NCBI GenBank assembly: GCA_947632065.1
Contig: CANRNO010000001.1
Location: forward strand, 5,803-69,802
Direction of reading: 5' to 3'
DNA: 64,000 nucleotides
Origin: an uncultured Bacilli bacterium
GTDB taxonomy: Bacteria > Bacillota_I > Bacilli_A > RF39 > UBA660
Part shown: in pieces, positions 6,309 through 53,111 of the stretch
Numbering within the stretch: the stretch's first letter is position 1
How the letters are laid out: each line of letters starts with the position of its first letter
Translations under genes and position numbers: made by a program
The notes under the pieces: generated by a model
Databases searched by the model: none
What the model was told of the DNA's origin: nothing
Seen by the model: the letters and a program-made list of their open reading frames with translations, nothing else

Positions 6309-6319
6309 AGGTGGTTATA

Positions 6320-6661: not shown

Positions 6662-6678
6662 TTAAATCACGCTTTTTT
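6653..6678. terminator. Bidirectional intrinsic terminator between convergent genes
   Basis: AAAA-cgtga-ttaaa-tcacg-c-TTTTTT: the stem is flanked by an A-run and a T-run, so it can terminate either strand. Confidence 0.45.
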
Positions 6679-7763: not shown

Positions 7764-7904
7764 ACAATCACCATGTTATAATTTTACTATATCTTTATAT
7801 AAATATCAATTATCTTTGAATTTTTTAATGTAAAAAACAAGAATAATAATTATATATAATTATAAAAAATTATTAAAATAAGTAAAAAAGTGTTATAATT
7901 TTAA

Positions 7905-8600: not shown

Positions 8601-8653
8601 TATAATTAACTAGTTGTATTTACGTCCCACAACAAAAAGAAAGGAGAAAAATA

Positions 8654-19783: not shown

Positions 19784-19868
19784 TGGTGCGAGTAACAGGA
19801 GTTGAACCTGCAAGGGTTACCCCGCTAGATCCTAAGTCTAGTGCGTCTGCCAATTCCGCCATACTCGC
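19784..19868 (-). tRNA. tRNA-Leu (anticodon TAG), long variable arm
   Basis: The reverse complement reads GCGAGTATGGCGGAATTGGCAGACGC...CTTAGGA...GGTTCAACTCC...CGCACCA; the cloverleaf is foldable by eye and CCA is encoded. Confidence 0.85.
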
Positions 19869-19873
19869 ATATG

Positions 19874-19950
19874 TGGTGGACCCTGATGGACTCGAACCAT
19901 CGACCACTCGGTTATGAGCCGAGAGCTCTAACCAACTGAGCTAAGGGTCC
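19874..19950 (-). tRNA. tRNA with CAT anticodon: Met, or more likely the lysidine-modified Ile2
   Basis: Reverse complement GGACCCTTAGCTCAGTTGGTTAGAGC...CTCATAA...GGTTCGAGTCC...GGTCCACCA; it closely resembles the Bacillus tRNA-Ile(CAU) scaffold. Confidence 0.85.
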
Positions 19951-34500: not shown

Positions 34501-34580
34501 AAGCGATAAAGACCAAAACAAATAAGAAAATCAATACATATTTATATTCAATAATAGATAATAAATTTAAAGAAGTATAG
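31515..34580 (+). CDS. addA: AddA/RexA-type ATP-dependent helicase/nuclease subunit A (UvrD-like)
   Basis: UvrD motifs GAGSGKT, ILVDEYQDTS, VGDVKQSIYRFR and TIHTSKGLEF, plus a C-terminal RecB-type nuclease (IIDYK). Confidence 0.85.
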   Translation: MNWTEEQLAAIKESGKNIIVSAGAGSGKTAVLSERVIEKIKQGIHINELLIMTFTNAAAAEMKERIRKKLLKEKNFKEEIELLDSAYITTFDSFALSIVKKYHDILNITNKVKICDEALITIKKKELLDEIFDEYYEKEDESFLNLIKDFCLKDDKELKKYIISIYNSISLKYDPIEFLEKESINNFKEENLNKVVTDYNNLLKENIKEIENILRKLSLTFSSDYMMKLYAPLDKLLNANNYEEIKNSLDIKLPPVPKNTELEIKDLKGNIKTITDDLKKMCIYSSTEEIKEDILSTKNNTIVITNILKELFKRLDVYKKEESFYNFNDIFHMAIKIVKDNKEIRDEVRNSFKEILVDEYQDTSDLQEYFISLIEDNNVYMVGDVKQSIYRFRNANPYIFKNKYDNYSKDNGGIKIDLNKNFRSRREVLSNINLIFDKIMSDNIGGASYKQTHRMQFGNKTYEEDGLTKQNYNLKIKTYEKEKNISNSIKESFIIATDIKEKIKNKYKIYDGNLREIKYSDFSILLDRSKDFDLYKKVLDYFGIPSEIIKNEELTKEDDILVLKNLFKLIILIHNKTYNQEFKYSFLSVGRSFLFDLDDDILFSYFVNNNFEESDIFIKCQEISKDLDIKTPSMVLEEIMNTFNYEEKLITLINIKNLRTRIEYIMTFLKDFSYLGNTPEDFIEYLDTVFTSSLRIEFQTKNTNSNAVKIMTIHTSKGLEFPICYFAGFTNSFNLRDLTDKILYNNTYGIVLPKVDEVIKATILNELLKYNTKKEEISEKIRLLYVALTRAKEEMIIVCPTFEKDIELSEYTQMKYKSFYNIIESIRYELEDYIEFIDIEVNKDFLTTSFKSDLKLKEVEDFIVEELDIPTEEEEEKRFSKTTLEIQTKEEKEKLQTGTNFHQILEMIDFKNPNLEILDEKEKNMITSFLENDIIKNNLDGNIYHEYEFLFKKENINYHGIIDLMIEKSDKIIIIDYKLKNIDDEKYKDQLNGYKEAIKTKTNKKINTYLYSIIDNKFKEV

Positions 34581-39070: not shown

Positions 39071-39165
39071 AATCGGTTCAATAGGATAACCGATTTTTAT
39101 TGAAATTTTTTTAAAAATTTGCTAAAATATAGGCAGAAAAAAGCGTTATAAAGAAGGAGTATAAA

Positions 39166-40956
39166 ATGGGGAAGAAAAGAAAAAATAAAGAGATACCACA
39201 AGTAAAAACTAATGAAAATATCAAAGAAAAAGAAATAAAAGAACCCGTAAAATTAAAAGATGAAACCTCAGTAAAAATAATAGTAATATCAGGAGAATCT
39301 TATTTTGATGGAAGTTTTATTGGTCTTTTAGGTTGGAAAATATTAGGATACATCCTAACAATTATAACTTTTGGACTTGCTTATCCATTTGCTTTATGTA
39401 TGAGATATAATTGGCAACTAAAACATACCGTTATAAACGGAAAAAGATTAAAATTTGATGGACATGGATATCAATTAATAGGTAAATGGATTTGGTGGTG
39501 GATACTAACCATTATAACATTAGGAATATATTATATATTTATACCTGTTCAAAAACAAAAATGGATTGTAAAACATACTCATTACGAAAGCTATGATAAA
39601 GATTCAGAAGAAGATGAAAATAACAAATCAGAATTTACTGGTAATATCTTTTCATACATTGGATGGTCTTTTCTAACATCATTTATAGCTATATTCTCCT
39701 TTGGATTACTTCTACCAATATCTATTTGTTTAATGACAAATTATAAAATAAAACACACTATATATGATGGAGAAGAATTAGAATTTACAGGAGATCCAAT
39801 AAATCTATTAATAAACTGTCTAAAATGGGTTGGACTTACTCTAATTACTTTTGGAGTTTATTTGATTGTATTAAAAGTATCAGTTATAAAATGGCAAGTA
39901 AAACACATTGCTAAAAAAGGAGTAAGTAAAAATACTTTCTCTACTGAAAAATATCTTTTAATACCATTAATTATATCTTTTATATCCTTTATAATCGTCT
40001 CTATTTTTGCATACCCTTTAATAGATGATTATATAGATAGTATAAAAGAAGAAATAGATTATATTATACAAGATGAAGTATATACTGGCCAAGATTGGGG
40101 AGATAAATATGCCCTATATTTAAAACATCATATATTTGATGAAACAAATAAAGTAAAAATTGCTATAGTAAATGTAGATGACTCATCTTCCCCAGAACTT
40201 TTCATTAACTATATTGATAAAAATAAGGAAAATATCACAAAATTCCTTTATATAAAAGGAAAAACAGTAAAAAGTTCTAGAAACTATAAAAACGCATCAA
40301 TTAAATTATTATGTACTGTAGAAGATGAAGAATATAAATGGGCAGTATTTATACCAGAAAAAGAAAGTGAAGACGGAAAACTATATTTTACAGATAAATT
40401 AATGAAAGAAGATTTTGAAAAAGTAGAATATAAAAAAGATGATAAAGAATTTCAAAGAAAATATATAATTCATAATATTAATTTAATTTATTATTATGTA
40501 TCAAAAGATGATTTACATAACGATATGAATGCCTTAATAGGAAATTACGAAGGAGATAATTATATAACATCATCCCTTGATAATGAATTTAAAAAAGAAA
40601 TAGAAGCAGCAAGATTAGAAATAGAGAATCTAAAAAGATTACAAGTTGGAGATTATTATGCTAAATACGGTACTTATAAACTTTATACAAATGGTTTACA
40701 CAGTACAGTTGCTTTAGTAGAAGATGATGAAATATTTGAATTAAAAGTAGGTGGAGTTTGTCATATAAAAAGAACAAATCATTTAGGAAATGAAATAGAT
40801 AAAGATTGTACTTATCAAGTTACAGATTCAAATTATACAATAGATTCTAAAAGGATTGCCACTATAAATGTTACCTATGAAGGAGGAAATACTAATTATC
40901 AAGTAAAAGATAATAATGTACTTACTAATTCATGGTATACCTTAAAACTTAAATAA
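39166..40956 (+). CDS. Membrane protein with three tandem DUF898 (YjgN-like) modules plus a ~300-aa C-terminal soluble domain
   Basis: GLLGWKILGYILTIITFGLAYPFALCMRYNWQLKHTVINGKRLKFDG-type module repeated three times. Confidence 0.55.
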   Translation: MGKKRKNKEIPQVKTNENIKEKEIKEPVKLKDETSVKIIVISGESYFDGSFIGLLGWKILGYILTIITFGLAYPFALCMRYNWQLKHTVINGKRLKFDGHGYQLIGKWIWWWILTIITLGIYYIFIPVQKQKWIVKHTHYESYDKDSEEDENNKSEFTGNIFSYIGWSFLTSFIAIFSFGLLLPISICLMTNYKIKHTIYDGEELEFTGDPINLLINCLKWVGLTLITFGVYLIVLKVSVIKWQVKHIAKKGVSKNTFSTEKYLLIPLIISFISFIIVSIFAYPLIDDYIDSIKEEIDYIIQDEVYTGQDWGDKYALYLKHHIFDETNKVKIAIVNVDDSSSPELFINYIDKNKENITKFLYIKGKTVKSSRNYKNASIKLLCTVEDEEYKWAVFIPEKESEDGKLYFTDKLMKEDFEKVEYKKDDKEFQRKYIIHNINLIYYYVSKDDLHNDMNALIGNYEGDNYITSSLDNEFKKEIEAARLEIENLKRLQVGDYYAKYGTYKLYTNGLHSTVALVEDDEIFELKVGGVCHIKRTNHLGNEIDKDCTYQVTDSNYTIDSKRIATINVTYEGGNTNYQVKDNNVLTNSWYTLKLK

Positions 40957-41071: not shown

Positions 41072-41341
41072 ATGGCTTTAACAAAAGATGAAAAAACAAA
41101 AATCATTGAAAAGTTTAGAATCAATGATACAGATACAGGTTCAGCAGAAGTTCAAATAGCTATTCTAACAGAAGAAATCAAACAATTAACAGAACATTTA
41201 AAAACACATATTCATGATTATCATTCTCGTCGTGGTCTTCTTAAAAAAGTTGGACAACGTCGTAATATGTTAGGATACCTAGCAAGAACAGATGTAACTA
41301 GATATCGTAAATTAATTAAAGAATTAGGTTTAAGAAAATAG
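41072..41341 (+). CDS. rpsO: 30S ribosomal protein S15
   Basis: 89 aa, MALTKDEK...[23 protein letters not shown]; canonical rpsO-pnp pair. Confidence 0.95.
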
Positions 41342-41360: not shown

Positions 41361-41402
41361 GATACTTTCATGATATAATGATACTTAGTGAGGAGTTATT
41401 AT

Positions 41403-43565
41403 ATGAAAAAAGAAATATTTAAATTAGATTTTTATGGCAAAGAAATAATAGTAGAACATGGAGAGATGGCTAAACAAGCAACAGGAGCAGTACTTGTAAG
41501 ATACAATGATACAGTAGTACTTTCAGCTGCAGTTTTAAATAAAGAAGTAAATCTTTTATCAGACTTTTTCCCACTTACAGTTAATTACCAAGAAAAACTT
41601 TATTCAGTAGGAAAAATTCCAGGAGGATTTATTAAAAGAGAAGGTCGTCCAACAGAAAATGCAACACTTGCAGCACGTATGATAGATAGACCTATGAGAC
41701 CATTATTCCCAGAAGGATTTAAAAATGAAGTACAAATTATAAATACAGTTTTATCAGTAGATCAAGATTGTTCACCAGAACTTACTGCAATGCTAGCATC
41801 TTCTCTAGCAGTCTCAATTAGTGAAATACCTTTTGATGGACCAATTGCGGGTGTTAAAGTAGGTTATGTTGATGGAAAATATATAATCAATCCAACACCA
41901 GAAGAAGCAGAAAAGTCAAGTCTAGACTTAACAGTTGCTGGAACAAAAGATGCTATCAACATGGTTGAATCAAGTGCTAAAGAAGTAAGTGAAGATATTA
42001 TGCTTAAAGCCCTAATGGAAGGACATAAAGCAATTAAAAAATTAATTAAATTTGAAGAAGAAATAATCAAAAAAATTGGTGTTCCTAAAATGGAATACGA
42101 AACTTTAGAAATAACAAGAGAACTAAGGGAAGAAGTAGAAGAACTTTCACGTGAAAAACTAGATAAAGCATTACGTATTAAAGAAAAACTAAAAATGCAT
42201 GAAGAAGTAGATGCTGTAAAAGAAAATACTATAAATACAATTTTACAAAAAGAAGAAAATCAAAATCTAGATAAAGAAGAAGAAAAAGAACTTACAACTA
42301 TGATTAATCAAATATTAAGTGATATAGAATATAAATTATTTAGAAGCATAGTTGTAAAAGAACATATTAGAGCAGACGGTCGTAAAATGGATGAAATAAG
42401 ACCACTTTCAACTGATATAGATATACTACCTAGAACTCATGGTTCTGCACTTTTCACTCGTGGAGAAACACAAGCATTATCAGTAACAACACTAGGTGCT
42501 CTAGGAGAACATCAAATATTAGATGGACTTGGACTTGAAGATGGAAAAAGATTTATGTTACATTACAATTTCCCACAATTCTCAGTAGGATCTACTGGAA
42601 GATATGGAGCACCAGGACGTCGTGAAATAGGACATGGTGCCTTAGGAGAAAAAGCCTTACTTCAAGTAATACCATCAGAAGATGAATTCCCATATACAAT
42701 TCGTGTTGTATCAGAAATTCTAGAATCAAATGGTTCATCTTCTCAAGCATCAATTTGTGCAGGATGTATGTCCTTAATGGCTGCAGGAGTTCCAATTAAA
42801 GCACCAGTTGCAGGAATTGCCATGGGACTTATAACAGATGGAGATGACTATACAATATTAACAGACATTCAAGGAATGGAAGACCATCTAGGAGATATGG
42901 ACTTTAAAGTTGCTGGTACAAAAACAGGAATATGTGCCCTACAAATGGATATTAAAATAAAAGGAGTAACAGAAGAAATATTAAAACAAGCTCTTGCTCA
43001 AGCTAAAAAAGCACGTCTAGAAATATTAAAAGTTATCGAAAAACAAATTAAAGAACCAAGAAAAGAAGTATCTAAATATGCTCCTAAGACTGTAACATTT
43101 ATGATTAAACCTGAAAAGATAAAAGATGTTATTGGTCGTGGTGGAGAAATGATTACTAAGATTATCTGTGAAGCATCAAATGTTACAGATGTAAATAATG
43201 TTAATGCTGTAAAAGTAGATCTAGAAGATGATGGTAGAGTAATTATTTATCACACTGATCAAGAAATAATAGATAAAACAAGACAAATGATAGAAGATGT
43301 AGTACGTGAAGTAGAAGAAGGAAAAATCTACAATGCAAAAGTTGTAAAAGTAGAAGATTTTGGTTGCTTTGTACAAGTATGGCCTGGATGTGAAGGATTA
43401 GTTCATATTTCACATCTTGATACAAAACGAGTAGAAAAAACAGAAGATGTTGTTAAAGTAGGGGATGAAATCATTGTAAAAGCAATCGGAACAGATAAAA
43501 GAGGAAGACTTAACTTCTCAAGACGTGATGCAATTAGCCCAAAAAAGAAAAAAGAGAAAAAATAA
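41403..43565 (+). CDS. pnp: Polyribonucleotide nucleotidyltransferase (PNPase)
   Basis: Two RNase PH domains, KH and S1 domains; start set at [12 protein letters not shown], which has a GAGGAG RBS. Confidence 0.95.
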
Positions 43566-43596
43566 ACAAAAGTTAATTATATATTATATATAAAAA

Positions 43597-43690
43597 GAAC
43601 ACCTAATAATGATGTGATATGAACCTCATTCCTTTGTCCAAGAAATGGGGTTCAGTTCATGATGTTAGGTGTTCTCTTTATTGTTTTACT
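43597..43690 (+). terminator. pnp terminator: an unusually long (~30-bp arm) imperfect hairpin followed by a U-run
   Basis: gaacacctaataatgatgtgatatgaacc ... ggttcagttcatgatgttaggtgttc, then tctttattgtttt. Confidence 0.5.
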
Positions 43691-43862
43691 TTTTAATTTT
43701 TTATTTAATGTTTCAGCACCTATACGAATAGTTGCTACTATTTTTCATTAGAAGTTGGTTTTTTTGTATTGGAAACATATGCTGATTGTGATAAAATTAT
43801 GTTATTGAATATTGCAATGTAGGTACATATATTTTTATTATTAAAATTTAGGAGTAAAAAAT

Positions 43863-44867
43863 ATGAGAAAAGAGAAAAAACAAAAATCAAAAAAATCATT
43901 AATCATAATAGCTATAATTTTTATAATTATTTCTATTATTTGTGCTTGCTTGTATTTTAATCGAAAAGAAAATAATAACAAAAATAAGCAGGAGACAATA
44001 GCTCTTAATGACAAAGAAAAACAAGTATTAAGTATTATATGTGAGATGAAATCATTTTATAGTCTAAATCCAGGTGGAACAAGAGTTGATATTAATGATA
44101 TAATTATTAACAATTTATTCTATGTACAAAACAAAAATGAGGATATTATGATAATAGGTTTAGATTGGTCAATGAGTTGGGATGGTAAATCAGTTAATCA
44201 AAAAATTGGCCTTATACCTGATAGTGATTATCCTAACAGAATTTCAAACGAAAGCATTAAATCATTTTATAAACAACCTGAAAATGCCGCAAATGAATTG
44301 ACAAATTCGTATGAAATGGCATTGAAAAGTTACGTAAATACAGATGAGCTATCTGAAGAATTTACATTGCTTGAAGTAGATAAGAGTAAAATAAAAGAAA
44401 TAGAAAACAAGGCTAACAAATATTTAAATTATGAAAAATATATGAGTCGTTGGAAAAAAATAAAGAATGAAAAAGAACAATATCAATATGGTTATCATGC
44501 ATTATATAGAGATGAAAATGGTAAGGATATTTCTATAAACTTTTTTGATGACGGTATATGTTCTACAAACTACAGTAATTTTAATTATAGTCAAAATCCT
44601 TCTGGAGTAATGCGTTACACAGTTAAATATATTAGCAATTCTTGTACTTATCGAGAAATATCTCAAAGAGAGTTAGAAATAATTGATGATACAATAGCTT
44701 CTAGAACTGCAACATCAGGAGGAATGACAATGAACGTAGGAAGTTCGAAAGTATCATCTAGTCCAATAAGAATTGAATTTGATGAAAACTATAAAACAAT
44801 TAAAATAATTAATGGACATTTTAATTATACTGGAGATCCAGCTTTCTTGACTTTTACAGAACAATAA
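43863..44867 (+). CDS. Membrane-anchored hypothetical protein (334 aa)
   Basis: N-terminal Lys-rich stretch plus a TM; no recognised domain; first gene of the pnp-smc islet. Confidence 0.4.
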   Translation: MRKEKKQKSKKSLIIIAIIFIIISIICACLYFNRKENNNKNKQETIALNDKEKQVLSIICEMKSFYSLNPGGTRVDINDIIINNLFYVQNKNEDIMIIGLDWSMSWDGKSVNQKIGLIPDSDYPNRISNESIKSFYKQPENAANELTNSYEMALKSYVNTDELSEEFTLLEVDKSKIKEIENKANKYLNYEKYMSRWKKIKNEKEQYQYGYHALYRDENGKDISINFFDDGICSTNYSNFNYSQNPSGVMRYTVKYISNSCTYREISQRELEIIDDTIASRTATSGGMTMNVGSSKVSSSPIRIEFDENYKTIKIINGHFNYTGDPAFLTFTEQ

Positions 44868-44937
44868 TACTTAGCAATAATTAAATGTAGTATTAAAAAT
44901 TATCGTAAATAAAAATATTTAAGAGGTGTAGTATTAA

Positions 44938-45363
44938 ATGAAAAAAAGATATATTATAATTTTTATAGTTGTTATATTTGCTATTATAAACATAGGTGCA
45001 TTGATTTATATTGTTAATGAAAATAATACAATAGTCTATGCAAAAAAATATGTAGCAACTTCTGATGATTCATGGGTAGAATTTTTTAGTGATGGAACTT
45101 GCTTTAGAAATATAAAACTAGATTATTGTAAATATAAAGTTGATGGAGATTTAATAATTTTAAAACAAAAGCAAACAGATGAGAATCTTGGATTAAGTAT
45201 GAAAATGGAACTTCATTTTAAAATTATAGATAGTGATAATCTAGAACATATTCATACTTGTTTTCCAGACTATAATGATGCTCATTCAGACTTTAATTGT
45301 GATAGTGATGAGAATAATCTTGAAAAATTAGGACAGACTGTAAAATATTCTTTAAAGAGTTAA
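44938..45363 (+). CDS. Membrane-anchored hypothetical protein (141 aa)
   Basis: N-terminal TM; Cys/His-containing C-terminal region; AGAGGTG RBS. Confidence 0.4.
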   Translation: MKKRYIIIFIVVIFAIINIGALIYIVNENNTIVYAKKYVATSDDSWVEFFSDGTCFRNIKLDYCKYKVDGDLIILKQKQTDENLGLSMKMELHFKIIDSDNLEHIHTCFPDYNDAHSDFNCDSDENNLEKLGQTVKYSLKS

Positions 45364-45451
45364 ATAAAATCACCAAAATATTAAATGCTCTCAATAAATT
45401 TTTATAATAGAAATTATTAAGTATTCATATACTTAATTAGGTGATAACTTC

Positions 45452-46312
45452 ATGAAAAAAACAAAACAAGTTATAATAAGTATTTCTTTAATATTACTAA
45501 GTTTTTTCTATACTAATAAAACAGTTGAAATATTAAGAAATGCTGATCCTATAATGAAAACAATTAAAAGTAAAGAAGAAAGTTTTAAAATAGAAGCAAC
45601 TAATGCTAAAATCGAAAAAAACACTATCACACCAGGAAGTAGTGGAAGTAAAATAAATCTAGATGATAGTTTTAAAAAAATGAAAAAATACGGAAGTTAT
45701 AATGAAAGTTTAATGGTTTTTGAAGAAGTAAAACCAGAAGTTTCAATAAATAATAATTATGATAAATTTATAATATCTGGAAATCAAGAAAAAGAAAATG
45801 TAGCATTACTATTCAAAGTATTTAGAGATGACGAAGTAGATGATATTCTAAATATATTAGAAGAATATAAAGTGAATGCTACTTTTTTTGTAGATGGATT
45901 ATGGCTTGAAAATAATCAAGAAAAAGTTGTTTATATGAGTGAGATAGACCAAGAAATAGAAATTTTAAATTATGATTCTTCCTATCAACAAAAATATTTT
46001 CAAAGTGCAGTAAACATTTCTCATTCACTAACAGGAACCCCACCAAAGTTTTGTTATGCAGAATATGAAAGAAAACAAGTTTTAAACTTATGTAAAAAGA
46101 TAAATCTACATACAGTAATTCCTTCTATTATTACAGAAGAAAATCCATTTGGGAATGTCAAAGAAAAACTAGAAAACGGTTCAATTATAAGTATGCCTTT
46201 AGGAGCAGTAGTAGAAAAACAACTGCCGACTATAATAAATTATATAAAGCAAAGAGGTTATAAAATTGTATCATTAGATGAATTATTAAGTGAAAAAGAA
46301 GTTATAAATTAA
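45452..46312 (+). CDS. NodB-homology (polysaccharide deacetylase-like) protein with degenerate catalytic motifs (PdaB/YlxY-like)
   Basis: ALLFKVFRDDEVDDILNILEEYKVNATFFVDGLWLENN matches NodB motif 1, but the HExxH-region His residues are replaced (IDQEIEILNYDSS). Confidence 0.45.
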   Translation: MKKTKQVIISISLILLSFFYTNKTVEILRNADPIMKTIKSKEESFKIEATNAKIEKNTITPGSSGSKINLDDSFKKMKKYGSYNESLMVFEEVKPEVSINNNYDKFIISGNQEKENVALLFKVFRDDEVDDILNILEEYKVNATFFVDGLWLENNQEKVVYMSEIDQEIEILNYDSSYQQKYFQSAVNISHSLTGTPPKFCYAEYERKQVLNLCKKINLHTVIPSIITEENPFGNVKEKLENGSIISMPLGAVVEKQLPTIINYIKQRGYKIVSLDELLSEKEVIN

Positions 46313-46364
46313 AAAGTATAAATACCTAAAAAGGTATTTTTTTTATAAAATTTTAAAAAAAGTA

Positions 46365-46428
46365 TTGACAAGTGTACTAAAGTACGCTTATAATTAAAGT
46401 GTAATGATTAAAGTGCACTAAAATCATT
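46365..46428 (+). promoter_or_regulatory. Consensus promoter TTGACA-17-TATAAT followed by a perfect 28-bp nested palindrome (taatgattaaagtgcactaaaatcatta) operator
   Basis: -35 at 46365-46370, -10 at 46388-46393; palindrome at 46401-46428 over the transcription start and leader, 30 nt before the start codon. Confidence 0.55.
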
Positions 46429-46457
46429 AAATAATTATGGGAAAAGGAGAGTATTTA

Positions 46458-47267
46458 ATGAGAGAAAGAAAAATGTGTTGGTGGATTACTGAAAAATGTA
46501 ACGAAAACTGCGAATATTGTTTCAGATCACTAAGTAGCATTAACAAATTCAACTTTGATGAACATATGAAAATATTAGAAAGGATAATTGACTTTGGAAC
46601 AGATCAAATTACTTGGTCTGGAGGAGAAGCATTGCTTGTAGATCATGCTCCAGAATTAATTAAATATGCTCATGAAAAAGGTATTTACAACAAAATAACA
46701 ACTAATGGTAAATTACTAACACCAGAAAAAATAGAAGAGTTAAAACCTTATATAGATTTAGTTGCTTTATCAATTGATTCATTTAATGATGAGACTAACA
46801 AAAAATTAGGACGTGGTATTGAACATAGAAAAACAGTTATGAATAGAATTAATCATCTAATGGCATCAGGTGTAAAAGTAGATATAAACACAGTAGTAAC
46901 AAGCCTAAACATCAAGGATTTAGATGATATGGGAGAGTTTCTTAGAGAAAACCCTATTTCTGGTAAATGGAAATTAATGACTTTCTTCCCAGTAAGAGAA
47001 AAAGCCCTTAAAAACAAAGATAAATTAGAAATAAGTGATGAAGAGTTTTTAACAGAAGTAAAAAGAATTATAGAAAAATATCCAGATATCAATATAACAT
47101 TTATGATGAATGATGAAATCCAACAACAATATCCAGGTGTAAGAGCTAACGGAGATTTGCTAGTAACACGTGATTACAATGATATGATATTTGGTAATAT
47201 GGCAACAGATGATAAAATAGAAAATCCATTTGAATATGATAAAAAATTCCAAAAAGTAAAAAAGTAA
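46458..47267 (+). CDS. Viperin-like radical-SAM enzyme (prokaryotic viperin, pVip-like)
   Basis: CNENCEYCF (viperin CNYKCGFCF), ITWSGGEALL (INFSGGEPFL), TNGKLL (SNGSLI), IDLVALSIDSFNDETNKKLGRG ([22 protein letters not shown]), VDINTVVTSLNIKD (KINSVINRFNVEE), GKWKLMTF (VRWKVFQ); start set at MRERK, which has an AAAGGAGAG RBS. Confidence 0.6.
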   Translation: MRERKMCWWITEKCNENCEYCFRSLSSINKFNFDEHMKILERIIDFGTDQITWSGGEALLVDHAPELIKYAHEKGIYNKITTNGKLLTPEKIEELKPYIDLVALSIDSFNDETNKKLGRGIEHRKTVMNRINHLMASGVKVDINTVVTSLNIKDLDDMGEFLRENPISGKWKLMTFFPVREKALKNKDKLEISDEEFLTEVKRIIEKYPDINITFMMNDEIQQQYPGVRANGDLLVTRDYNDMIFGNMATDDKIENPFEYDKKFQKVKK

Positions 47268-47294
47268 CTTTATAATTATCAATATAATAATTTA

Positions 47295-47322
47295 AAAGGA
47301 AGCTTCTTGCTTTCTTTTTTTG
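47295..47322 (+). terminator. Intrinsic terminator after the viperin-like gene
   Basis: aaaggaagc-ttctt-gctttcttt followed by ttttg. Confidence 0.45.
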
Positions 47323-47387
47323 TTTACAAAATATAAAAAAAATTATAATATAATAAGTATAAATTGTTAATTGAAAAGGAAAAATCT

Positions 47388-47903
47388 ATGAAGAAAGATA
47401 TTAATAAATTACCTAAAAGTATTATTTTAGTAAGACATGGGGAAAATATATTTAATGATAATATTCCAAATGATTTATTAGAGCTCTCACCACTTGGTAT
47501 TAAACAAGCAATGTGGGTAAAAGAAAAATTGAATAATAATTTTGATGTAGTATTTTCATCAACTTCAAAACGTACTATTGATACTGCTACTATAATATCT
47601 TCAAAAATAAAAGCTATCCAAGATAAAAGATTATTAGAAAAAGGATATGGTAATAATAAAAATGGAGATGAAACTTTAAAAGATGCTAAAAATAGATTCA
47701 AAGAAGTATTAGATGAAGTAATAAGAAAATACCCAAATAAAAAAGTATTATTTGTTATCCATGGAGCACTTATGAAACTTGCACAAGATGTAATAGAAAG
47801 TGAAAATCTAAAAAGAGATTCCATAGAAAACTGTGAAATAATAAAATATGAAAGAACCTCAGATGAAGTGTTTAATAAAATTATAGAAAAACCTTTTGAG
47901 TAA
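47388..47903 (+). CDS. Histidine phosphatase (phosphoglycerate-mutase superfamily, branch 1)
   Basis: ILVRHGEN (the catalytic RHG motif), SSTSKRTIDTA, and C-terminal VIHGALM (second His); own promoter TTTACA-17-TAATAT; the minus-strand ORF overlapping it (47324-47920) is rejected. Confidence 0.7.
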   Translation: MKKDINKLPKSIILVRHGENIFNDNIPNDLLELSPLGIKQAMWVKEKLNNNFDVVFSSTSKRTIDTATIISSKIKAIQDKRLLEKGYGNNKNGDETLKDAKNRFKEVLDEVIRKYPNKKVLFVIHGALMKLAQDVIESENLKRDSIENCEIIKYERTSDEVFNKIIEKPFE

Positions 47904-47936
47904 ATATAAAGATATTCCAAGCAGAATATCTTTTCT
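47904..47936 (+). terminator. Intrinsic terminator after the phosphatase gene
   Basis: aaagatattc-caagca-gaatatcttt followed by a T-rich run. Confidence 0.5.
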
Positions 47937-48014
47937 TTATATTAAATTTCCTTTTTTCCTTTTGATATTTATAAATTTTTGTTATAATGGAAATAGTCAA
48001 AAGTAGGTGATATG

Positions 48015-50969
48015 ATGTATTTAAAACAAATTAATACTAGTGGGTTTAAATCTTTTGCTAAAAAACTAGAAATATCACTAGGTAATAATATAACTTGTAT
48101 AGTTGGACCTAATGGTAGTGGTAAAAGTAATATAGTAGATGCTGTTAGATGGGTTTTAGGAGAACAAAGCGTTAAATCTCTACGTGGAGATAATACTATG
48201 AGTGACATTATATTCTCAGGAAGTAAAACTAGAAAACCATTAAATGTTGCAAGCGTCGAATTAATATTTGATAACAATGATCATTTTTTAAACATTCCCT
48301 ATACAGAGATATCTATCAAAAGAAGAATATATAGAAGTGGAGAAAATGAATATTTCTTAAATAATGAAAGATGTCGTCTTAAAGATTTAACTAATTTATT
48401 ATTAGATTCAGGTATAGGACGTGAATCATTTAATATTATCTCTCAAGGAGAAGTGGATAATATCCTATCATCATCTCCACAAGAAAGACGTGTAATATTT
48501 GAAGAAGCATCAGGAATATTAAAATACAAAAAAAGGAAAATAGAAGCATTAAGAAAACTAGAAAGAACACATAATAATTTAGATAGAATAAACGATATTA
48601 TCACCGAAATAGAAACCCAAGTAGAACCATTAAAAAGACAAAGTAAAAAAGCAAGAAAATATAAAGAAGCTAAAGATACTTTAGAAAAATATGAAATAGC
48701 CTTACTTGCCCATGATATAAAGTTCTACAAAGAAAAATTAGATACTATTATTAAGAAAATAGATGAATTAAATCAACAGATAATAGAACTTTCTAGTGAA
48801 ACATCTCTAATGGATTCAAAGTCTTTAGAAGATGCGTCTATTATATCAAAACTAGAACGTGATATTACAGAAGCAAATGAAAAATTATTAAAGACAACAG
48901 AAGAAGTAGAAAAGATAAATGGAGAACTTACTCTTTTGAAAGAAAGAAAGAAAAACCAAAAAGAAGATAGTGAAGTATTAGATGAAATAAGAAGATTATT
49001 AGAAGAAAAAGAGAGCTTATCATCAACCATTACTGTTGTAAAAAACGAAATAGAAAATATAAATAAAACACTAGAAGAAAATAAAAAATTAGAAAAAAAC
49101 CTTACAGAAGAGTTAAATAAAATAAAATCTAAAAAAGATAATCTTTCAATGAAAAGGAATTCTATTGATAGAGAACTTACTTCTCTTGATTATAAAATAA
49201 ATGGTCTTGAAAGAGAAATAGAAAATAATGACTCTTTTCCAATCTCTGTAAAAAAAGTATTAAATTCAATAAAATTAAATGGTATTTGTGATACTTTAGG
49301 TAATGTATTAAATGTAGAAGATAAATATCTAAAAGCCTTAGAGACCGCAACCGCATCTTCTAAAAACTTTATTATTACAAAAAATGAAAACTCAGCAAGA
49401 GATGCAATTTTGTACTTAAAAGAAAACTCTCTAGGACGAGCAACTTTCTTCCCACTTACAGTAATAGAAAAGAAAGAAGTAGATGCTAAAACATTAAAAG
49501 AGATAAAGGATAGCTCTGACTTTATAGATGTTTTAAGTAATTTAGTTACCTATGATAAAAAATATGAAAATATTATAAAAAATCAATTAGGTACCATTCT
49601 AGTATCAGAGAATATTGATAGTGCTATTAGATTATCTAAAAAAGTAAACAAAAGATATAGAATTATCACTTTAGATGGACAAACTATTAATACTGGTGGT
49701 TCTATGAGTGGTGGAAGTAATTATAAAAGTAAAAGTGTTATATCTTTAAGACGAGAATTAACAGTCTACAAAGAAAAGAAAAAGACATTAAAAGAAGAAA
49801 TAATTACTATAGAAGAACAATTAAAAGAAGTAGAAAAAGAACAAGAGGTAAAAGAAAAAGAATTCTTTAGTACTAAATCAAAAACAGTTTCATTAGAAGA
49901 AATGATAAATGTTCAAACAGAAAAAAAGAAAAACTCTGAAGAAAATCTTGAAAAGGTAAGTAAAGATTATGAAACTTATTCACATCTTAAAAATAAATCA
50001 ATCGATTCTAAAGAAGAAAAACTAACTTCTTTATATCATGAAAAACTTGCTTTAAAAGAAACTTTAAATAATGATATAAAACATAAAAATAAAACTTTAG
50101 AAGAATTAAAATTAAAACAAATAGAAAAAGCCGGAGAAGAAAAACTTAAAAATGCAAATCTTCGTAAATTAGAACATGAACTTTCTGATTATGAGGTAGA
50201 TAAAAATAGACTTGATGTAACACTTGATAATATGTTAAATACTTTAAACGAAGAATATTCAATGACTTATGAAAAAGCAGATAGTGATTATGAGTTAGAT
50301 ATAGAAGTAGAAGATGCAAGAAAAAAAGTTACCACTTGTAAAAATGAAATTAAAAAAATAGGAATGGTTAACTTAGATAGTATAGAAGAATATGAAAGAG
50401 TATCTACTAGATTTAACTTTTTAACAAATCAAAAAAATGACCTATTAAATGCTGAAGAAACTCTACTTTCTATAATGAATGATATGGATGAAGTAATGAT
50501 TTCTGAATTTGAAAAAACATTTAAAAAAGTTAAAGTAGAATTCCAAAAAGTATTTAAAGAATTATTTAAAGGTGGAAATGCTGATTTAATTTTAACTGAG
50601 CCTGATGATATTCTAACAACAGGAGTAGAAATAGTTGCATCCCCACCAGGTAAAAAACTAACATCAATTTCCCTTCTATCAGGAGGAGAAAAAACTCTAA
50701 CCGCAATAAGCCTACTATTTGCTATGCTAAATGTTAGAAGAGTGCCTTTCTGCTTATTTGATGAAGTGGAAGCAGCTCTAGATGAGGCTAATGTTGATGA
50801 GTTTGGAAAATATTTAGATCATTATAAAGATAAAACACAATTTTTAATTATAACCCATAAAAAGAAAACTATGGAATATGCTGATACATTATATGGTATT
50901 ACAATGCAAGAATCTGGTGTTTCTAAACTAGTTAGTGTTAAACTTAATGAAAAAGAAGAAATATTATAA
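48015..50969 (+). CDS. smc: Chromosome partition protein SMC (short coiled-coil form, ~984 aa)
   Basis: N-terminal Walker A GPNGSGKSN, a hinge region, and a C-terminal LSGGEKTLTAISLLFA signature plus Walker B LFDEVEAALD. Confidence 0.9.
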   Translation: MYLKQINTSGFKSFAKKLEISLGNNITCIVGPNGSGKSNIVDAVRWVLGEQSVKSLRGDNTMSDIIFSGSKTRKPLNVASVELIFDNNDHFLNIPYTEISIKRRIYRSGENEYFLNNERCRLKDLTNLLLDSGIGRESFNIISQGEVDNILSSSPQERRVIFEEASGILKYKKRKIEALRKLERTHNNLDRINDIITEIETQVEPLKRQSKKARKYKEAKDTLEKYEIALLAHDIKFYKEKLDTIIKKIDELNQQIIELSSETSLMDSKSLEDASIISKLERDITEANEKLLKTTEEVEKINGELTLLKERKKNQKEDSEVLDEIRRLLEEKESLSSTITVVKNEIENINKTLEENKKLEKNLTEELNKIKSKKDNLSMKRNSIDRELTSLDYKINGLEREIENNDSFPISVKKVLNSIKLNGICDTLGNVLNVEDKYLKALETATASSKNFIITKNENSARDAILYLKENSLGRATFFPLTVIEKKEVDAKTLKEIKDSSDFIDVLSNLVTYDKKYENIIKNQLGTILVSENIDSAIRLSKKVNKRYRIITLDGQTINTGGSMSGGSNYKSKSVISLRRELTVYKEKKKTLKEEIITIEEQLKEVEKEQEVKEKEFFSTKSKTVSLEEMINVQTEKKKNSEENLEKVSKDYETYSHLKNKSIDSKEEKLTSLYHEKLALKETLNNDIKHKNKTLEELKLKQIEKAGEEKLKNANLRKLEHELSDYEVDKNRLDVTLDNMLNTLNEEYSMTYEKADSDYELDIEVEDARKKVTTCKNEIKKIGMVNLDSIEEYERVSTRFNFLTNQKNDLLNAEETLLSIMNDMDEVMISEFEKTFKKVKVEFQKVFKELFKGGNADLILTEPDDILTTGVEIVASPPGKKLTSISLLSGGEKTLTAISLLFAMLNVRRVPFCLFDEVEAALDEANVDEFGKYLDHYKDKTQFLIITHKKKTMEYADTLYGITMQESGVSKLVSVKLNEKEEIL

Positions 50970-51770: not shown

Positions 51771-53048
51771 ATGTTTGTAGATGAGGTTAAATTAATAGTA
51801 AAAGCTGGTAATGGTGGAGATGGTTGTACTGCATTTCGCCGTGAAAAATACGTTCCAATGGGAGGACCTTTTGGAGGTAATGGTGGACATGGAGCAAGCA
51901 TCATATTTAAGGTAGATGAAGGGCTTCATACATTACTAGATTTAAGATATCAAAAGTTAATAAAAGGACATAAAGGAGAAAATGGTAAAGGTAAAAATCA
52001 ACATGGTAAGGGTGCAGAAGATGTTATTGTAAAAGTTCCAAGAGGAACAGTAGTAACAGATTTAGATACTGGACTTATTATTGCTGATTTAACTGATAAA
52101 GATAGTAGTTGTGTAGTTGCAAAAGGTGGAAGAGGAGGACGTGGTAACACTGCTTTTAAAACCCAAACAAATACAGCACCAGATTTCTCAGAAAAAGGAG
52201 AACCAGGAGAAGAAAGAGAATTAAAAGTAGAACTAAAAATGCTTGCTGATGTTGGTTTAGTAGGACTTCCAAGTGTAGGTAAATCAACTTTTATCTCATG
52301 TGTATCCCATTCACGTCCAAAAATTGCTGCTTACCATTTCACAACACTTTATCCAAATTTAGGAGTTGCAAAAAGTAAAAACAATAGAAGTTTTGTAATC
52401 GCAGATCTTCCAGGACTAATCAAGGGAGCCTCAACAGGAGAAGGATTAGGAGATAGATTCTTAAAACATATAGAAAGAACTAAAATCATTGCTCATGTCA
52501 TAGATATGTCAGGAAGCGAAGGAAGAGACCCTTATGAAGATTATCTTACAATAAATAAAGAACTAGAAGAATACAGTGAAAAACTATTAAAAAAACCTCA
52601 AATAATTATAGCCAATAAAATGGATATAGAAGGATCACAAAAATTACTTTCAGAATTTAAAAACAAAGTAAAAGATGTAGAAATATTTGAAATAAGCGCA
52701 GCGTTAAATAAAGGACTAGATAAAGTAATAGATCGTCTAGGTGAATTATTAGAAGACCTACCTGATACAACATTATATCAAGACGATGCTTTTGAAAGTC
52801 ATGTTTTATATAAATTCGAAAGTGAAAAACCATTTGAAATAGAAAAAGAAGATGATTCTACTTGGCATATTAAAGGAGAAAAAATAGAAAAATTATTTAA
52901 AATGACAAAAATAGAATCTGAAGAAGGAATGAATAGATTCCTAAAAAAATTAAGAAGACTTGGTGTAGATGATAAACTAAAAGAATTAGGAGTAAAAGAA
53001 AATGACCAAGTAAGAATATTAGATTTCTATTTTACATACAAAGATTAA
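51771..53048 (+). CDS. obg: GTPase Obg
   Basis: Gly-rich Obg fold N-terminus, G-domain GLPSVGKST and DLPGLI, C-terminal OCT/TGS-like domain. Confidence 0.95.
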   Translation: MFVDEVKLIVKAGNGGDGCTAFRREKYVPMGGPFGGNGGHGASIIFKVDEGLHTLLDLRYQKLIKGHKGENGKGKNQHGKGAEDVIVKVPRGTVVTDLDTGLIIADLTDKDSSCVVAKGGRGGRGNTAFKTQTNTAPDFSEKGEPGEERELKVELKMLADVGLVGLPSVGKSTFISCVSHSRPKIAAYHFTTLYPNLGVAKSKNNRSFVIADLPGLIKGASTGEGLGDRFLKHIERTKIIAHVIDMSGSEGRDPYEDYLTINKELEEYSEKLLKKPQIIIANKMDIEGSQKLLSEFKNKVKDVEIFEISAALNKGLDKVIDRLGELLEDLPDTTLYQDDAFESHVLYKFESEKPFEIEKEDDSTWHIKGEKIEKLFKMTKIESEEGMNRFLKKLRRLGVDDKLKELGVKENDQVRILDFYFTYKD

Positions 53049-53111
53049 TAAAAAAGTCTCAAAATGTTATGAATTTTGAGATTTTTAATATATAATAATA
53101 TTGGTGATATA

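What the first reader, a model, noticed from the sequence alone, without database searches (positions are those of the whole stretch)
43597..47936. Small accessory islet inserted between conserved pnp and smc
rpsO-pnp and smc-obg are core genes. Between them lie five co-oriented genes with no housekeeping role: two membrane-anchored proteins of unknown function, a NodB-like protein with degenerate catalytic motifs, the viperin-like gene and the histidine phosphatase. Each has its own promoter and terminator. The pnp terminator at the left edge is an unusually long hairpin (~30-bp arms). No integrase or flanking direct repeats are visible, so the acquisition mechanism is unclear.
Basis: partly seen in the sequence, partly recalled or inferred. 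Interest (0 to 1): 0.55.

Follow-up and report, generated by a model that had tools for sequence, protein, structure and literature searches.

The report
Patchwork of gene gains between pnp and smc
The stretch between the core genes pnp and smc is not one imported islet but an old resident gene (a decayed ylxY) flanked by two variable slots, which have separately taken up two orphan surface proteins, a stand-alone viperin-like antiviral gene and a small phosphatase; this is ordinary genome flux with one moderately interesting enzyme.

Summary
The five co-oriented genes and the long hairpin after pnp are at the stated coordinates. Comparison with related genomes rejects a single five-gene islet.

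- **Resident gene:** the NodB-like gene is the ylxY orthologue. It follows pnp in the nearest genomes and in distant spore-forming Bacillales, and has lost its catalytic motifs.
- **Variable genes:** in order of relatedness, the interval reads pnp-ylxY-smc, pnp-[two unrelated small genes]-ylxY-smc, pnp-ylxY-rSAM-smc (about 94-95% identical DNA), and the window's pnp-g1-g2-ylxY-rSAM-HisP-smc.
- **No co-travel:** in about 100 loci with viperin-like genes, HisP, g1 and g2 accompany the gene only in the window's own haplotype.
- **The rSAM gene:** it moves as a roughly 0.95-kb promoter-plus-gene cassette, seen with the same promoter in an unrelated, mobile-element-rich context. Its predicted fold is viperin (TM about 0.8). 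Its clade scores below the curated viperin cut-off and lacks the C-terminal RGGxY motif, so I call it viperin-like, probably antiviral.
- **Acquisition:** no integrase, flanking repeats, tRNA target or composition shift. Homologous-recombination replacement is inferred.

Verdict: partly supported, ordinary, low to moderate interest.

The parts
41072..41341 (+). rpsO (ribosomal protein S15), core left flank
   Evidence: ORF. tblastn finds it next to pnp in nearly all 80 related loci. Annotated PF00312 in L081.
41388..43565 (+). pnp (polynucleotide phosphorylase), core left flank
   Evidence: Pfam RNase_PH, PNPase, KH and S1. 82% identity to L002 and L007.
43590..43681 (+). Long hairpin terminator after pnp (about 36 pairs) followed by a T-tract. 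Its outer stem is shared with L081 and its inner stem is haplotype-specific.
   Evidence: dG -38.8, z -7.8. L081 has an equally long hairpin (dG -37.1) with a different interior. L007 has only a short 11-bp terminator. The hairpin is unique in the window and has no Rfam match.
43692..45372 (.). Slot A segment, specific to the window haplotype. It replaces about 105-183 bp in L081, which there encode a 26-aa hydrophobic ORF on the minus strand.
   Evidence: blastn breakpoints at window 43615 and 45373 against L081 4645 and 4829. The base-level alignment extends homology through the hairpin to about 43691.
43863..44867 (+). g1: membrane-anchored orphan protein (334 aa). Its C-terminal domain (about residues 190-333) is shared with only three proteins in 1.8 billion representatives.
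   Evidence: No Pfam, NCBIfam or PADLOC family. Exhaustive phmmer found 4 hits including itself. No terminator follows it.
44938..45363 (+). g2: membrane-anchored orphan protein (141 aa). A g2-like domain is fused to a g1-like C-terminal domain in P0089.
   Evidence: No family. The only homologue by word-indexed search is itself.
45452..46312 (+). ylxY orthologue: a membrane-anchored NodB-fold protein with the catalytic motifs lost. Resident gene, not part of any insertion.
   Evidence: TIGR02873 at 1e-31, aligned over its full length. Follows pnp in L002, L007 and L081 and in eight Bacillales or Clostridia loci. Motif loss shown.
46320..46346 (+). ylxY terminator (8-bp AT-rich stem plus T8)
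   Evidence: Fold. Conserved in L081.
46346..47286 (+). Viperin-like radical SAM cassette: promoter, 5'UTR and coding sequence.
   Evidence: 79.5% nucleotide identity over window 46346-47231 to L087 9892-10774, which lies in an unrelated context. Promoter and UTR are conserved between the two. Absent between ylxY and smc in L002 and L007.
46365..46394 (+). Perfect sigma-70-type promoter TTGACA-18-TATAAT of the cassette
   Evidence: 12 of 12 matches, the best site in the 10.5-kb scan. Conserved in L081 and L087.
46402..46433 (+). Inverted repeat in the 5'UTR, TAATGATT-N13-AATCATTA, enclosing the palindrome AGTGCACT. A candidate operator or RNA hairpin.
   Evidence: Read directly from the sequence. 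Conserved in L081 and L087. Function not tested.
46458..47267 (+). Viperin-like radical SAM enzyme, 269 aa from the RBS-preceded ATG (the ORF list starts it at 46437)
   Evidence: PF04055 at 2.8e-25. PADLOC pVip at 6.5e-47. NF038283 at 144.8 bits, below the 180-bit cut-off. AF2 pLDDT 90.5. The top 18 Foldseek PDB hits are viperins. Gene callers give 269 aa.
47294..47318 (+). Intrinsic terminator after the rSAM gene
   Evidence: The only terminator-like site found in the scan. dG -10.9, z -3.7.
47287..47970 (.). Slot B segment, specific to the window haplotype (terminator, promoter, HisP gene, terminator). It replaces 78 bp in L081.
   Evidence: blastn breakpoints at window 47286 and 47971 against L081 6747 and 6826.
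47388..47903 (+). Small histidine phosphatase (171 aa), branch 1, with the RHG motif and the second catalytic His present
   Evidence: PF00300 at 79 bits against a 21.7-bit cut-off. No equivalog cut-off is reached. Homologues sit elsewhere without an rSAM gene.
47908..47933 (+). HisP terminator hairpin followed by a T-rich tract
   Evidence: Fold (z -2.8).
48012..50969 (+). smc, core right flank. HAD phosphatase, obg and rnhB follow it.
   Evidence: Pfam SMC_N and SMC_hinge. 59% identity to L002 and L007 and about 96% nucleotide identity to L081. Downstream genes.

Best explanation
The pnp-smc interval of this low-GC, uncultured gut Bacilli lineage (near 'Mycoplasma sp. CAG:877') is a mosaic. 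Its ancestral state is pnp-ylxY-smc, with ylxY now a catalytically decayed but retained membrane-anchored NodB-fold protein. Two intergenic slots, one on each side of ylxY, have changed content independently.

1. **rSAM cassette.** A roughly 0.95-kb cassette entered the ylxY-smc slot in the common ancestor of the window and its nearest relative. It carries a consensus promoter, a conserved 5'UTR and a viperin-like radical SAM gene.
2. **HisP unit.** A self-contained histidine phosphatase unit was later added downstream of the cassette, in the window haplotype only.
3. **g1-g2.** The pnp-ylxY slot holds different lineage-specific small genes in each genome. In the window haplotype it holds g1-g2, two orphan, domain-shuffled, membrane-anchored proteins.

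The content differences between haplotypes are shown. The mechanism is inferred. Each change looks like a segment replacement bounded by conserved flanks, with no integrase, repeats or tRNA. That fits homologous recombination through the flanking core genes, or illegitimate recombination in AT-rich terminator and promoter DNA.

Function is also inferred. The rSAM enzyme most likely acts as a stand-alone antiviral nucleotide-modifying enzyme of the viperin type: radical SAM dehydration of an NTP to a chain-terminating ddhNTP. HisP, g1 and g2 are not its partners.
For: **Interval content by relatedness**
- L007 (pnp 82% identical): pnp-ylxY-smc.
- L002 (82%): pnp, then two unrelated genes of 202 and 146 aa, then ylxY-smc.
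- L081 and four further assemblies (93-96% nucleotide identity): rpsO-pnp-ylxY-rSAM-smc-HAD-obg.
- The window haplotype recurs in six independent contigs.

**Breakpoints and flanks**
- Breakpoints against L081 lie at 43615/45373 and 47286/47971, with different short sequences in L081.

**ylxY is resident**
- It follows pnp in eight distant Firmicutes loci.
- The literature describes it as a phylogenetically profiled sporulation gene with one TM segment (PMC9332280).

**The cassette is mobile**
- The cassette and its promoter are shared with L087, where it lies among Fic, integrase and HTH_38 genes.
- Other homologues lie next to a TIR protein, next to NERD and an HTH-AAA_28-CYTH gene, and next to guaB/guaA.

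**No co-travel**
- Among 100 loci with viperin-like hits, HisP is adjacent only in the window haplotype.
- HisP homologues occur elsewhere without an rSAM gene.

**Viperin likeness**
- HMM best hits are viperin models, about 20 orders of magnitude ahead of other families.
- All nine best PDB sequence hits are viperins.
- The AF2 model matches viperin structures at TM about 0.8 and rmsd 2.4-2.8 over about 260 residues.
Against: - All comparators are metagenome-assembled contigs, and only four genomes share the pnp-ylxY-smc backbone. Polarity (gain or loss) therefore rests on parsimony over few taxa.
- No recombination event is observed directly.
- The rSAM clade is not a canonical viperin.
  - It fails the curated NF038283 cut-off: 128-148 bits for the clade and its sister clades, against 257-294 bits for canonical pVips.
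  - It lacks the C-terminal RGGxY motif.
  - It replaces the beta-1 N-x-H residues with C-W-W.
  - ddhNTP chemistry is therefore an extrapolation.
- No close relative was found on phages, plasmids or viral contigs, so the vehicle of transfer is unknown.
- Adjacency of HisP to the rSAM gene could still be functional (see rivals).
Confidence: 0.75

Rival explanations
1. A single five-gene accessory islet was acquired in one block between pnp and smc.
For: The five genes are co-oriented, contiguous and bounded by core genes. The interval is 4.4 kb here against about 1.0 kb in L007.
Against: - ylxY is present at this position in every genome that shares the backbone, and next to pnp in distant Bacillales.
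- The closest genome has rSAM without g1, g2 or HisP.
- The two window-specific segments are separated by 1.9 kb of conserved DNA at about 94% identity.
- There is no integrase, direct repeat, tRNA target or GC shift.
Confidence: 0.03
2. The rSAM gene and HisP form a two-gene functional module: a modified nucleotide is made by the rSAM enzyme and then dephosphorylated, or detoxified for self-protection, by the phosphatase. This would be analogous to the kinase or CYTH partners of viperin-like genes.
For: - The two genes are immediately adjacent and co-oriented.
- Related viperin-like genes repeatedly sit next to phosphate-handling partners. Examples are an HTH-AAA_28-CYTH gene 22 bp downstream in L182-185, and CYTH proteins in L103-108.
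- Viperin fusions to predicted triphosphatase or cyclase domains are reported in eukaryotes (bioRxiv 10.1101/2023.09.13.557418).
Against: - An intrinsic terminator and a separate promoter-like site lie between the two genes.
- The 97%-identical rSAM gene in L081 has no HisP.
- None of the other roughly 94 viperin-like loci has a HisP homologue.
- HisP homologues sit in unrelated contexts, including four His_Phos_1 ORFs in a row in L099, two of them short and possibly one split gene.
Confidence: 0.1
3. The full five-gene arrangement is ancestral, and the relatives have lost genes through reductive evolution of these small genomes.
For: The lineage has reduced, fast-rearranging genomes, and gene order downstream of pnp differs in every genome with pnp at or below 76% identity. 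Between the window and L081 alone, loss and gain are formally equivalent.
Against: - Both outgroups (L002, L007) lack rSAM, HisP, g1 and g2, so loss would need repeated independent deletions.
- The rSAM cassette, with the same promoter, occurs in an unrelated mobile-element-rich context.
- g1 and g2 are near-orphans with no homologue in relatives.
- The alternative segments in L081 and L002 are different sequences, not deletion scars.
Confidence: 0.1
4. The radical SAM enzyme is not an antiviral ddhNTP synthase. It belongs to a distinct viperin-like family with different chemistry or a different substrate, either metabolic or making a different signalling or antiviral molecule.
For: - It scores below the cut-off on curated viperin models, and the scores are clearly bimodal.
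- It lacks the C-terminal RGGxY motif.
- It carries substitutions at positions equivalent to mouse viperin N77, H79, K120 and K220. The roles of these residues are from my own recollection of the viperin-CTP structures and were not verified here.
- Sister clades sit in operon-like clusters with methyltransferases, a U32 peptidase, CYTH proteins and LysR regulators.
Against: - The fold, the radical SAM and SAM-binding motifs, the conserved Tyr (the Y302 equivalent) and the R/K-W-K motif are retained.
- The viperin HMMs are far better than any alternative family.
- The gene's patchy, single-gene distribution next to TIR, NERD and Fic genes is typical of defence genes.
Confidence: 0.3

Closest known systems
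Prokaryotic viperins (pVips; NCBIfam NF038283, PADLOC pVip models; Bernheim et al. 2021, cited from my own knowledge and through bioRxiv 10.1101/2023.09.13.557418)
   Same: - Radical SAM CxxxCxxC and GGE motifs.
- Partial beta-alpha barrel with a C-terminal extension, by AF2 and Foldseek (TM about 0.8 to mouse and fungal viperins).
- A single-gene, patchily distributed accessory gene, sometimes beside other defence-type genes or a nucleotide-kinase-like gene.
   Different: - Scores 144.8 bits against the 180-bit curated cut-off; canonical pVips score 257-294.
- About 20-30 residues shorter at the C-terminus, with no RGGxY motif.
- The beta-1 N-x-H residues are replaced by C-W-W.
- Product and antiviral activity are untested.
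Bacillus subtilis pnpA-ylxY neighbourhood and the YlxY sporulation polysaccharide deacetylase family (TIGR02873)
   Same: - The gene lies directly downstream of pnp.
- It has one N-terminal TM segment and a NodB fold.
- It aligns over the full length of TIGR02873.
   Different: - 110 bits against the 391.5-bit cut-off.
- The metal-binding HSxxH, DTxDW and LMHP motifs are lost, so it is probably non-catalytic.
- The downstream neighbour is smc (or the rSAM cassette), not mlpA/ymxH (own knowledge of the B. subtilis map).
Integrase-borne genomic islands and prophage-derived defence islands
   Same: Accessory genes, including a defence-type gene, sit between core genes, and their presence varies among relatives.
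   Different: No integrase, attachment repeats, tRNA target or compositional shift. The content changes gene by gene rather than as one block, and the segments are 0.7-1.7 kb.
Viperin partnerships with nucleotide kinases (CMPK2-like) and with triphosphatase or cyclase (CYTH-type) domains
   Same: Relatives of this rSAM clade sit next to an HTH-AAA_28-CYTH gene or CYTH proteins. In the window a phosphate-handling enzyme (HisP) is adjacent.
   Different: HisP belongs to a different superfamily, is separated from the rSAM gene by a terminator, and does not co-occur with rSAM homologues elsewhere.

Membership tests
Viperin / pVip (NF038283, TIGR04278, PADLOC PDLC02903-5) | Radical SAM CxxxCxxC cluster motif and GGE SAM-binding motif | tested here: met
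   C14, C18 and C21 and G55-G56-E57 are invariant in alignment A3. PF04055 scores 89.8 bits against a 29.5-bit cut-off.
Viperin / pVip (NF038283, TIGR04278, PADLOC PDLC02903-5) | Viperin fold: partial (beta-alpha)6 barrel closed by a C-terminal extension | tested here: met
   AF2 model with pLDDT 90.5 and pTM 0.88. Foldseek PDB ranks 1-18 are all viperin or viperin-like enzymes, with TM 0.76-0.82 and rmsd 2.3-2.8 over 245-264 columns.
Viperin / pVip (NF038283, TIGR04278, PADLOC PDLC02903-5) | Score at or above the curated family cut-off | tested here: not met
   NF038283 scores 144.8 bits against 180, and TIGR04278 scores 68.8 against 450. The window clade and its sister clades score 128-148 bits, canonical pVips 257-294. 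PADLOC models show the same split: 137-164 against 249-288 bits.
Viperin / pVip (NF038283, TIGR04278, PADLOC PDLC02903-5) | C-terminal tail with the RGGxY motif and the beta-1 N-x-H residues seen in canonical and eukaryotic viperins | tested here: not met
   The window clade ends ...GNM..NPF without RGGxY and has C-W-W in place of N-W/Y-H (A3; alignment to mouse viperin). That these residues bind the nucleotide triphosphate is from my own recollection and was not verified.
Viperin / pVip (NF038283, TIGR04278, PADLOC PDLC02903-5) | Makes ddh-nucleotides and protects against phage | not testable with these tools
   Needs expression, LC-MS and phage assays.
Viperin / pVip (NF038283, TIGR04278, PADLOC PDLC02903-5) | Branches with viperins rather than with MoaA or other radical SAM enzymes in a phylogeny | tested here: inconclusive
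   A crude NJ tree with SPASM radical SAM outgroups left the deep nodes unresolved. The window clade was monophyletic in 96 of 100 bootstraps. No MoaA set or maximum-likelihood software was available.
Integrase-type genomic island | Integrase or recombinase gene | tested here: not met
   None of the five proteins matches a recombinase family, and no other ORF of 85 aa or more lies in the interval.
Integrase-type genomic island | Flanking direct repeats and a tRNA or tmRNA target | tested here: not met
   Only AT-rich two-copy matches at 72-76% identity. The only tRNAs in the window are at 19787-19950.
Integrase-type genomic island | Presence or absence of the whole unit as one block among relatives | tested here: not met
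   Four different contents of the interval exist, and ylxY is constant.
Integrase-type genomic island | Compositional deviation from the flanks | tested here: not met
   GC is 0.22-0.30 across the interval against 0.24-0.37 in the flanks, and GC skew is unchanged.
YlxY (TIGR02873) sporulation polysaccharide deacetylase family | Curated HMM cut-off | tested here: not met
   110.1 bits against 391.5, although it is the best hit and aligns over 1-268 of 268 model positions.
YlxY (TIGR02873) sporulation polysaccharide deacetylase family | Conserved position directly downstream of pnp | tested here: met
   Seen in L002, L007 and L081 and in L015, L019, L025, L026, L028, L029, L032 and L048.
YlxY (TIGR02873) sporulation polysaccharide deacetylase family | NodB catalytic and metal-binding motifs (HSxxH, DxxDW, LxH) | tested here: not met
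   Present in the eight Bacillales and Clostridia YlxY sequences. Deleted or substituted in the window, L081, L002 and L007.
Histidine phosphatase superfamily, branch 1 (PF00300) | Pfam gathering score, the RHG catalytic motif and the second catalytic His | tested here: met
   79 bits against 21.7. The sequence shows LVRHGEN and VIHGALM.
Histidine phosphatase superfamily, branch 1 (PF00300) | Assignment to a specific enzyme (CobC, PspA, dPGM, SixA) | tested here: not met
   The best equivalog is TIGR03162 at 48.7 bits against 162.9. All others are also below their cut-offs.

The most novel reading that the evidence does not exclude
The rSAM gene represents an uncharacterised, short-tailed sister family of viperins, with 'C-W-x' in beta-1 and no RGGxY tail. 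About 45 clusters of this family at 90% identity were found, mostly in gut Firmicutes.

Its nucleotide-phosphate pocket appears remodelled, and it is recurrently linked to CYTH (triphosphate-tunnel) proteins. That would point to a product other than the classical ddhNTPs, or to a differently phosphorylated substrate. In the window, the adjacent histidine phosphatase would then be an alternative phosphate-handling partner.
Probability: 0.2. Interest if true: 0.6.

Novelty: new member of a known kind. Interest (0 to 1): 0.3.

Why it matters
**For annotation.** Co-orientation between two core genes does not make an islet. Here one 'islet' gene is the oldest resident of the locus, and the others arrived separately.

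**For biology.**
- Reduced-genome gut Bacilli can pick up a single promoter-equipped defence-type gene with no mobile-element machinery.
- The locus flags a well-populated viperin-like clade that curated models leave unnamed. Its missing C-terminal motif makes it a cheap and informative target for testing which parts of the viperin scaffold ddh-nucleotide synthesis needs.
- The decayed but retained ylxY is a small example of a sporulation-family gene surviving as a probable pseudo-enzyme.

Tried and rejected
- **Viral contigs**: no relative of the rSAM gene.
- **Phage and plasmid collections**, tblastn: only relatives below 35% identity, and those on plasmids are canonical viperins. No vehicle was identified.
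- **Rfam**, at gathering threshold over the whole window and at E<=1 over 43500-48100: nothing for the hairpin or the 5'UTR.
- **Hairpin as a repeated element**: it is unique in the window.
- **Direct and inverted repeats flanking the segments**: only AT-rich chance-level pairs. One 41-nt pair at 76% identity brackets the rSAM cassette; I judged it to be chance.
- **NJ phylogeny**: the first run timed out. The second left the deep nodes unresolved because distances were saturated and the outgroup was not monophyletic.
- **Literature on the residue-level CTP contacts of viperin**: the key papers are not held, so residue roles are marked as my own recollection.
- **PHROGs**: only a non-significant hit for g1.
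- **Context of the g1/g2 fusion homologue P0089**: a 4-kb contig of small unannotated ORFs, uninformative.
- **rSAM-HisP module idea:** tested by co-occurrence and not supported.

Full report
**Observation**

The window is about 25% GC. Between pnp (41388-43565) and smc (48012-50969) lie five co-oriented ORFs at the stated coordinates.

- **g1** (43863-44867, 334 aa) and **g2** (44938-45363, 141 aa) have N-terminal membrane anchors and match no Pfam, NCBIfam or PADLOC family.
- **The third gene** (45452-46312) is a NodB-fold protein. Its best family is YlxY: TIGR02873 at 1e-31, aligned over its full length but far below the cut-off.
- **The fourth gene** is a radical SAM protein whose best matches are viperin models: PADLOC pVip at 6.5e-47, and NF038283 at 2.8e-42 (144.8 bits against a cut-off of 180).
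  - Its real start is most likely 46458. That ATG is preceded by GGAAAAGGAGAG, and independent gene calls give 269 aa.
- **The fifth gene** (47388-47903) is a 171-aa branch-1 histidine phosphatase.

The hairpin after pnp is real: 43590-43681, about 36 pairs, dG -38.8 kcal/mol, z -7.8.

The claim that every gene has its own promoter and terminator holds only in part.
- The promoter-like count is at chance level (79 found against 69 +/- 9).
- Only the radical SAM gene has an outstanding promoter, a 12/12 consensus at 46365-46394.
- There is no terminator after g1 or g2. The ylxY, rSAM and HisP genes each have one.

**Whose genome**

A scan of species-representative genomes with pnp found the nearest relatives among uncultured gut 'Bacilli', 'Mycoplasma sp. 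CAG:877' and 'Tenericutes' MAGs. The best pnp identity was 82%. Exact-protein look-ups then recovered two closer sets.
- The window's own haplotype appears in six independent contigs (L089-L094).
- A sister haplotype, at 93-96% nucleotide identity, appears in GCA_947623665.1 and four other assemblies (L081-L085).

| Genome | Relatedness | Interval content |
|---|---|---|
| L007 | pnp 82% | pnp-ylxY-smc |
| L002 | pnp 82% | pnp-[202-aa TM protein]-[146-aa Cys-rich protein]-ylxY-smc; neither small protein is related to g1 or g2 |
| L081 type | 93-96% nucleotide identity | rpsO-pnp-ylxY-rSAM-smc-HAD-obg |
| Window | - | pnp-g1-g2-ylxY-rSAM-HisP-smc |

At the DNA level the window and L081 are collinear except for two segments.
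- Window 43616-45372 is replaced by 183 bp in L081. By base-level alignment the homology continues to about 43691.
- Window 47287-47970 is replaced by 78 bp in L081.
- The 1.9 kb between these segments (ylxY plus rSAM) is about 94% identical.

In genomes with pnp at or below 76% identity, gene order downstream of pnp differs every time. The first gene is often a signal- or TM-anchored orphan.

**ylxY is resident**

Homologues of the NodB-like gene lie directly downstream of pnp in eight distant spore-forming Firmicutes loci. These include Bacillaceae, Paenibacillus, Cohnella, Thermoactinomycetaceae and Intestinibacter. From my own knowledge, this matches the pnpA-ylxY arrangement in Bacillus subtilis. 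The literature describes ylxY as a phylogenetically profiled, sigma-E-dependent sporulation gene with one TM segment (PMC9332280).

The alignment shows that those YlxY proteins keep NodB motifs 2, 4 and 5 (HSYSHP, DTxDW, LMHP). The window, L081, L002 and L007 orthologues have lost all three. The gene is nevertheless an old resident, about 50% identical across the subclade, and not cargo.

**The radical SAM gene**

*It moves alone.* The database search found a tight family of about 45 clusters at 62-97% identity, then relatives at or below 41%. Members of the tight family sit in unrelated places:
- among Fic, a phage-type integrase, a YbaK-like gene, an HTH_38 protein and a DUF87 ATPase (L087);
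- next to a 1081-aa TIR protein (L088);
- after guaB/guaA (L180);
- between a NERD protein and an HTH-AAA_28-CYTH gene that starts 22 bp downstream (L182-185).

*The unit that moves includes the promoter.* Window 46346-47231 is 79.5% identical in DNA to the L087 copy. The TTGACA-18-TATAAT promoter and a 5'UTR inverted repeat (TAATGATT-N13-AATCATTA) are conserved between the two contexts. The flanks and terminators are not.

*It does not travel with its neighbours.* Across 100 loci with viperin-like hits, HisP is adjacent only in the window haplotype, and ylxY only in the window and L081 haplotypes.

**Is it a viperin?**

Evidence for:
- Viperin HMMs beat the next family by about 20 orders of magnitude.
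- The nine best PDB sequence matches are viperins.
- The AF2 model (pLDDT 90.5) superposes on mouse and fungal viperins at TM about 0.8. Ranks 1-18 of the fold search are all viperins.
- The CxxxCxxC, GGE and (R/K)WK motifs and the conserved Tyr are present.

Evidence against membership:
- The clade and its sister clades score 128-148 bits on NF038283, where canonical pVips score 257-294. PADLOC models show the same split.
- The protein ends 20-30 residues early, without the RGGxY motif found in all canonical and eukaryotic sequences in the alignment.
- The beta-1 N-x-H residues are C-W-W. The positions equivalent to mouse K120 and K220 are Q and D.
- I recall these residues as part of the triphosphate pocket but could not verify this, because the structural papers are not held.

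I therefore call it viperin-like. It probably works like a viperin. It is not a demonstrated member of the curated family.

Sister clades at 37-40% identity lie in operon-like clusters with CYTH proteins, methyltransferases, a U32 peptidase and LysR regulators, or are fused to a receiver-like domain. Together with the CYTH neighbour in L182, this gives a recurrent link to triphosphate-tunnel enzymes. It echoes the viperin fusions to predicted triphosphatase or cyclase domains reported in eukaryotes (10.1101/2023.09.13.557418).

**HisP, g1 and g2**

- **HisP** has only about a dozen homologues.
  - A 59% homologue lies elsewhere in the L081 genome among unknown genes.
  - Another contig (L099) carries four His_Phos_1 ORFs in a row, two of them short and possibly one split gene.
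  - None is near an rSAM gene.
- **g1:** an exhaustive HMMER search found three homologues in 1.8 billion representatives, and they share only its C-terminal domain.
- **g2** has no homologue but itself.
- One g1 homologue, P0089, carries a g2-like domain at its N-terminus. g1 and g2 therefore belong to a small set of domain-shuffled, lineage-specific surface proteins.

**Mechanism**

- No recombinase, flanking repeat, tRNA target or composition shift is present.
- No close relative occurs on phages, plasmids or viral contigs.
- Each difference is a replacement of one short intergenic segment by another, between well-conserved flanks.
- I infer homologous recombination through the flanking core genes, or illegitimate recombination in AT-rich terminator and promoter DNA. 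This step is inferred, not shown.
- By parsimony, the rSAM cassette entered after the split from L002 and L007. HisP and g1-g2 are later changes in the window haplotype.

**Verdict**

The 'islet' interpretation is only partly right. The locus is a gene-by-gene mosaic around a resident, decayed ylxY. It is ordinary accessory-gene flux, with one moderately interesting component: a promoter-equipped, short-tailed, viperin-like gene.

Noticed in passing
L081 4704-4784 (minus strand): In the sister haplotype, the slot that holds g1-g2 in the window carries a 26-aa hydrophobic ORF (MRKRDLLFIFMAVVQLLLIVLLFKTI). It has a strong GGAGGTGA ribosome-binding site and converges on the long pnp hairpin. It could be a small membrane peptide or a type I toxin.
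   Followed up: partly
window 43590-43681 and L081 4618-4710: The long hairpin after pnp keeps the same outer stem in both haplotypes, but the inner stem is a completely different self-complementary sequence. Both fold at about -37 to -39 kcal/mol. L007 has only a short terminator. Why such a long stem is kept is unexplained.
   Followed up: partly
window 46365-46433 (also L081 and L087): The viperin-like gene has a perfect consensus promoter. Its spacer contains GTAC-N4-GTAC. The 5'UTR carries an 8-bp inverted repeat around the palindrome AGTGCACT, and the short motif AAAGT(G/A) recurs. All of this is conserved in a copy that lies in an unrelated context, which suggests an operator or a regulatory hairpin.
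   Followed up: partly
window 53008-53076 and L081 11906-13427: The obg-rnhB junction is a further variable slot. The sister haplotype carries an extra 368-aa gene with no family there, and the window has none.
   Followed up: no
L103, L106, L107, L108 (about 3100-8800); L104/L105; L100/L102; L182-185: Viperin-like radical SAM genes that score below the curated cut-off recur next to CYTH-domain proteins. Three arrangements were seen: U32 peptidase-methyltransferase-rSAM-methyltransferase-...-CYTH; CYTH-rSAM-LysR; and rSAM followed by HTH-AAA_28-CYTH. Some are fused to a receiver-like C-terminal domain, and in L100 one of these lies two genes from a ToxN toxin gene.
   Followed up: partly
P0089 (L186 864-2345), P0087, P0088: The only homologues of g1 share its C-terminal domain. 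One of them fuses a g2-like domain to it. The domains share a recurring 'DG(T/I)C' pattern, suggesting a small family of shuffled extracellular modules.
   Followed up: partly
L091 2-688: In one contig of the window haplotype, ylxY is only 90.8% identical to the window while the adjacent HisP is 100% identical. This hints at a recombination mosaic within the interval.
   Followed up: no
window 29169-34580 and 36440-40956: Upstream of the interval the neighbourhood is housekeeping: an AddB/AddA-like PD-(D/E)XK nuclease plus UvrD-type helicase pair, a CNNM/CBS protein, a P-type ATPase and a DUF898 membrane protein. None of this gene order is shared with L002 or L007, so synteny in this clade is very short-range.
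   Followed up: partly
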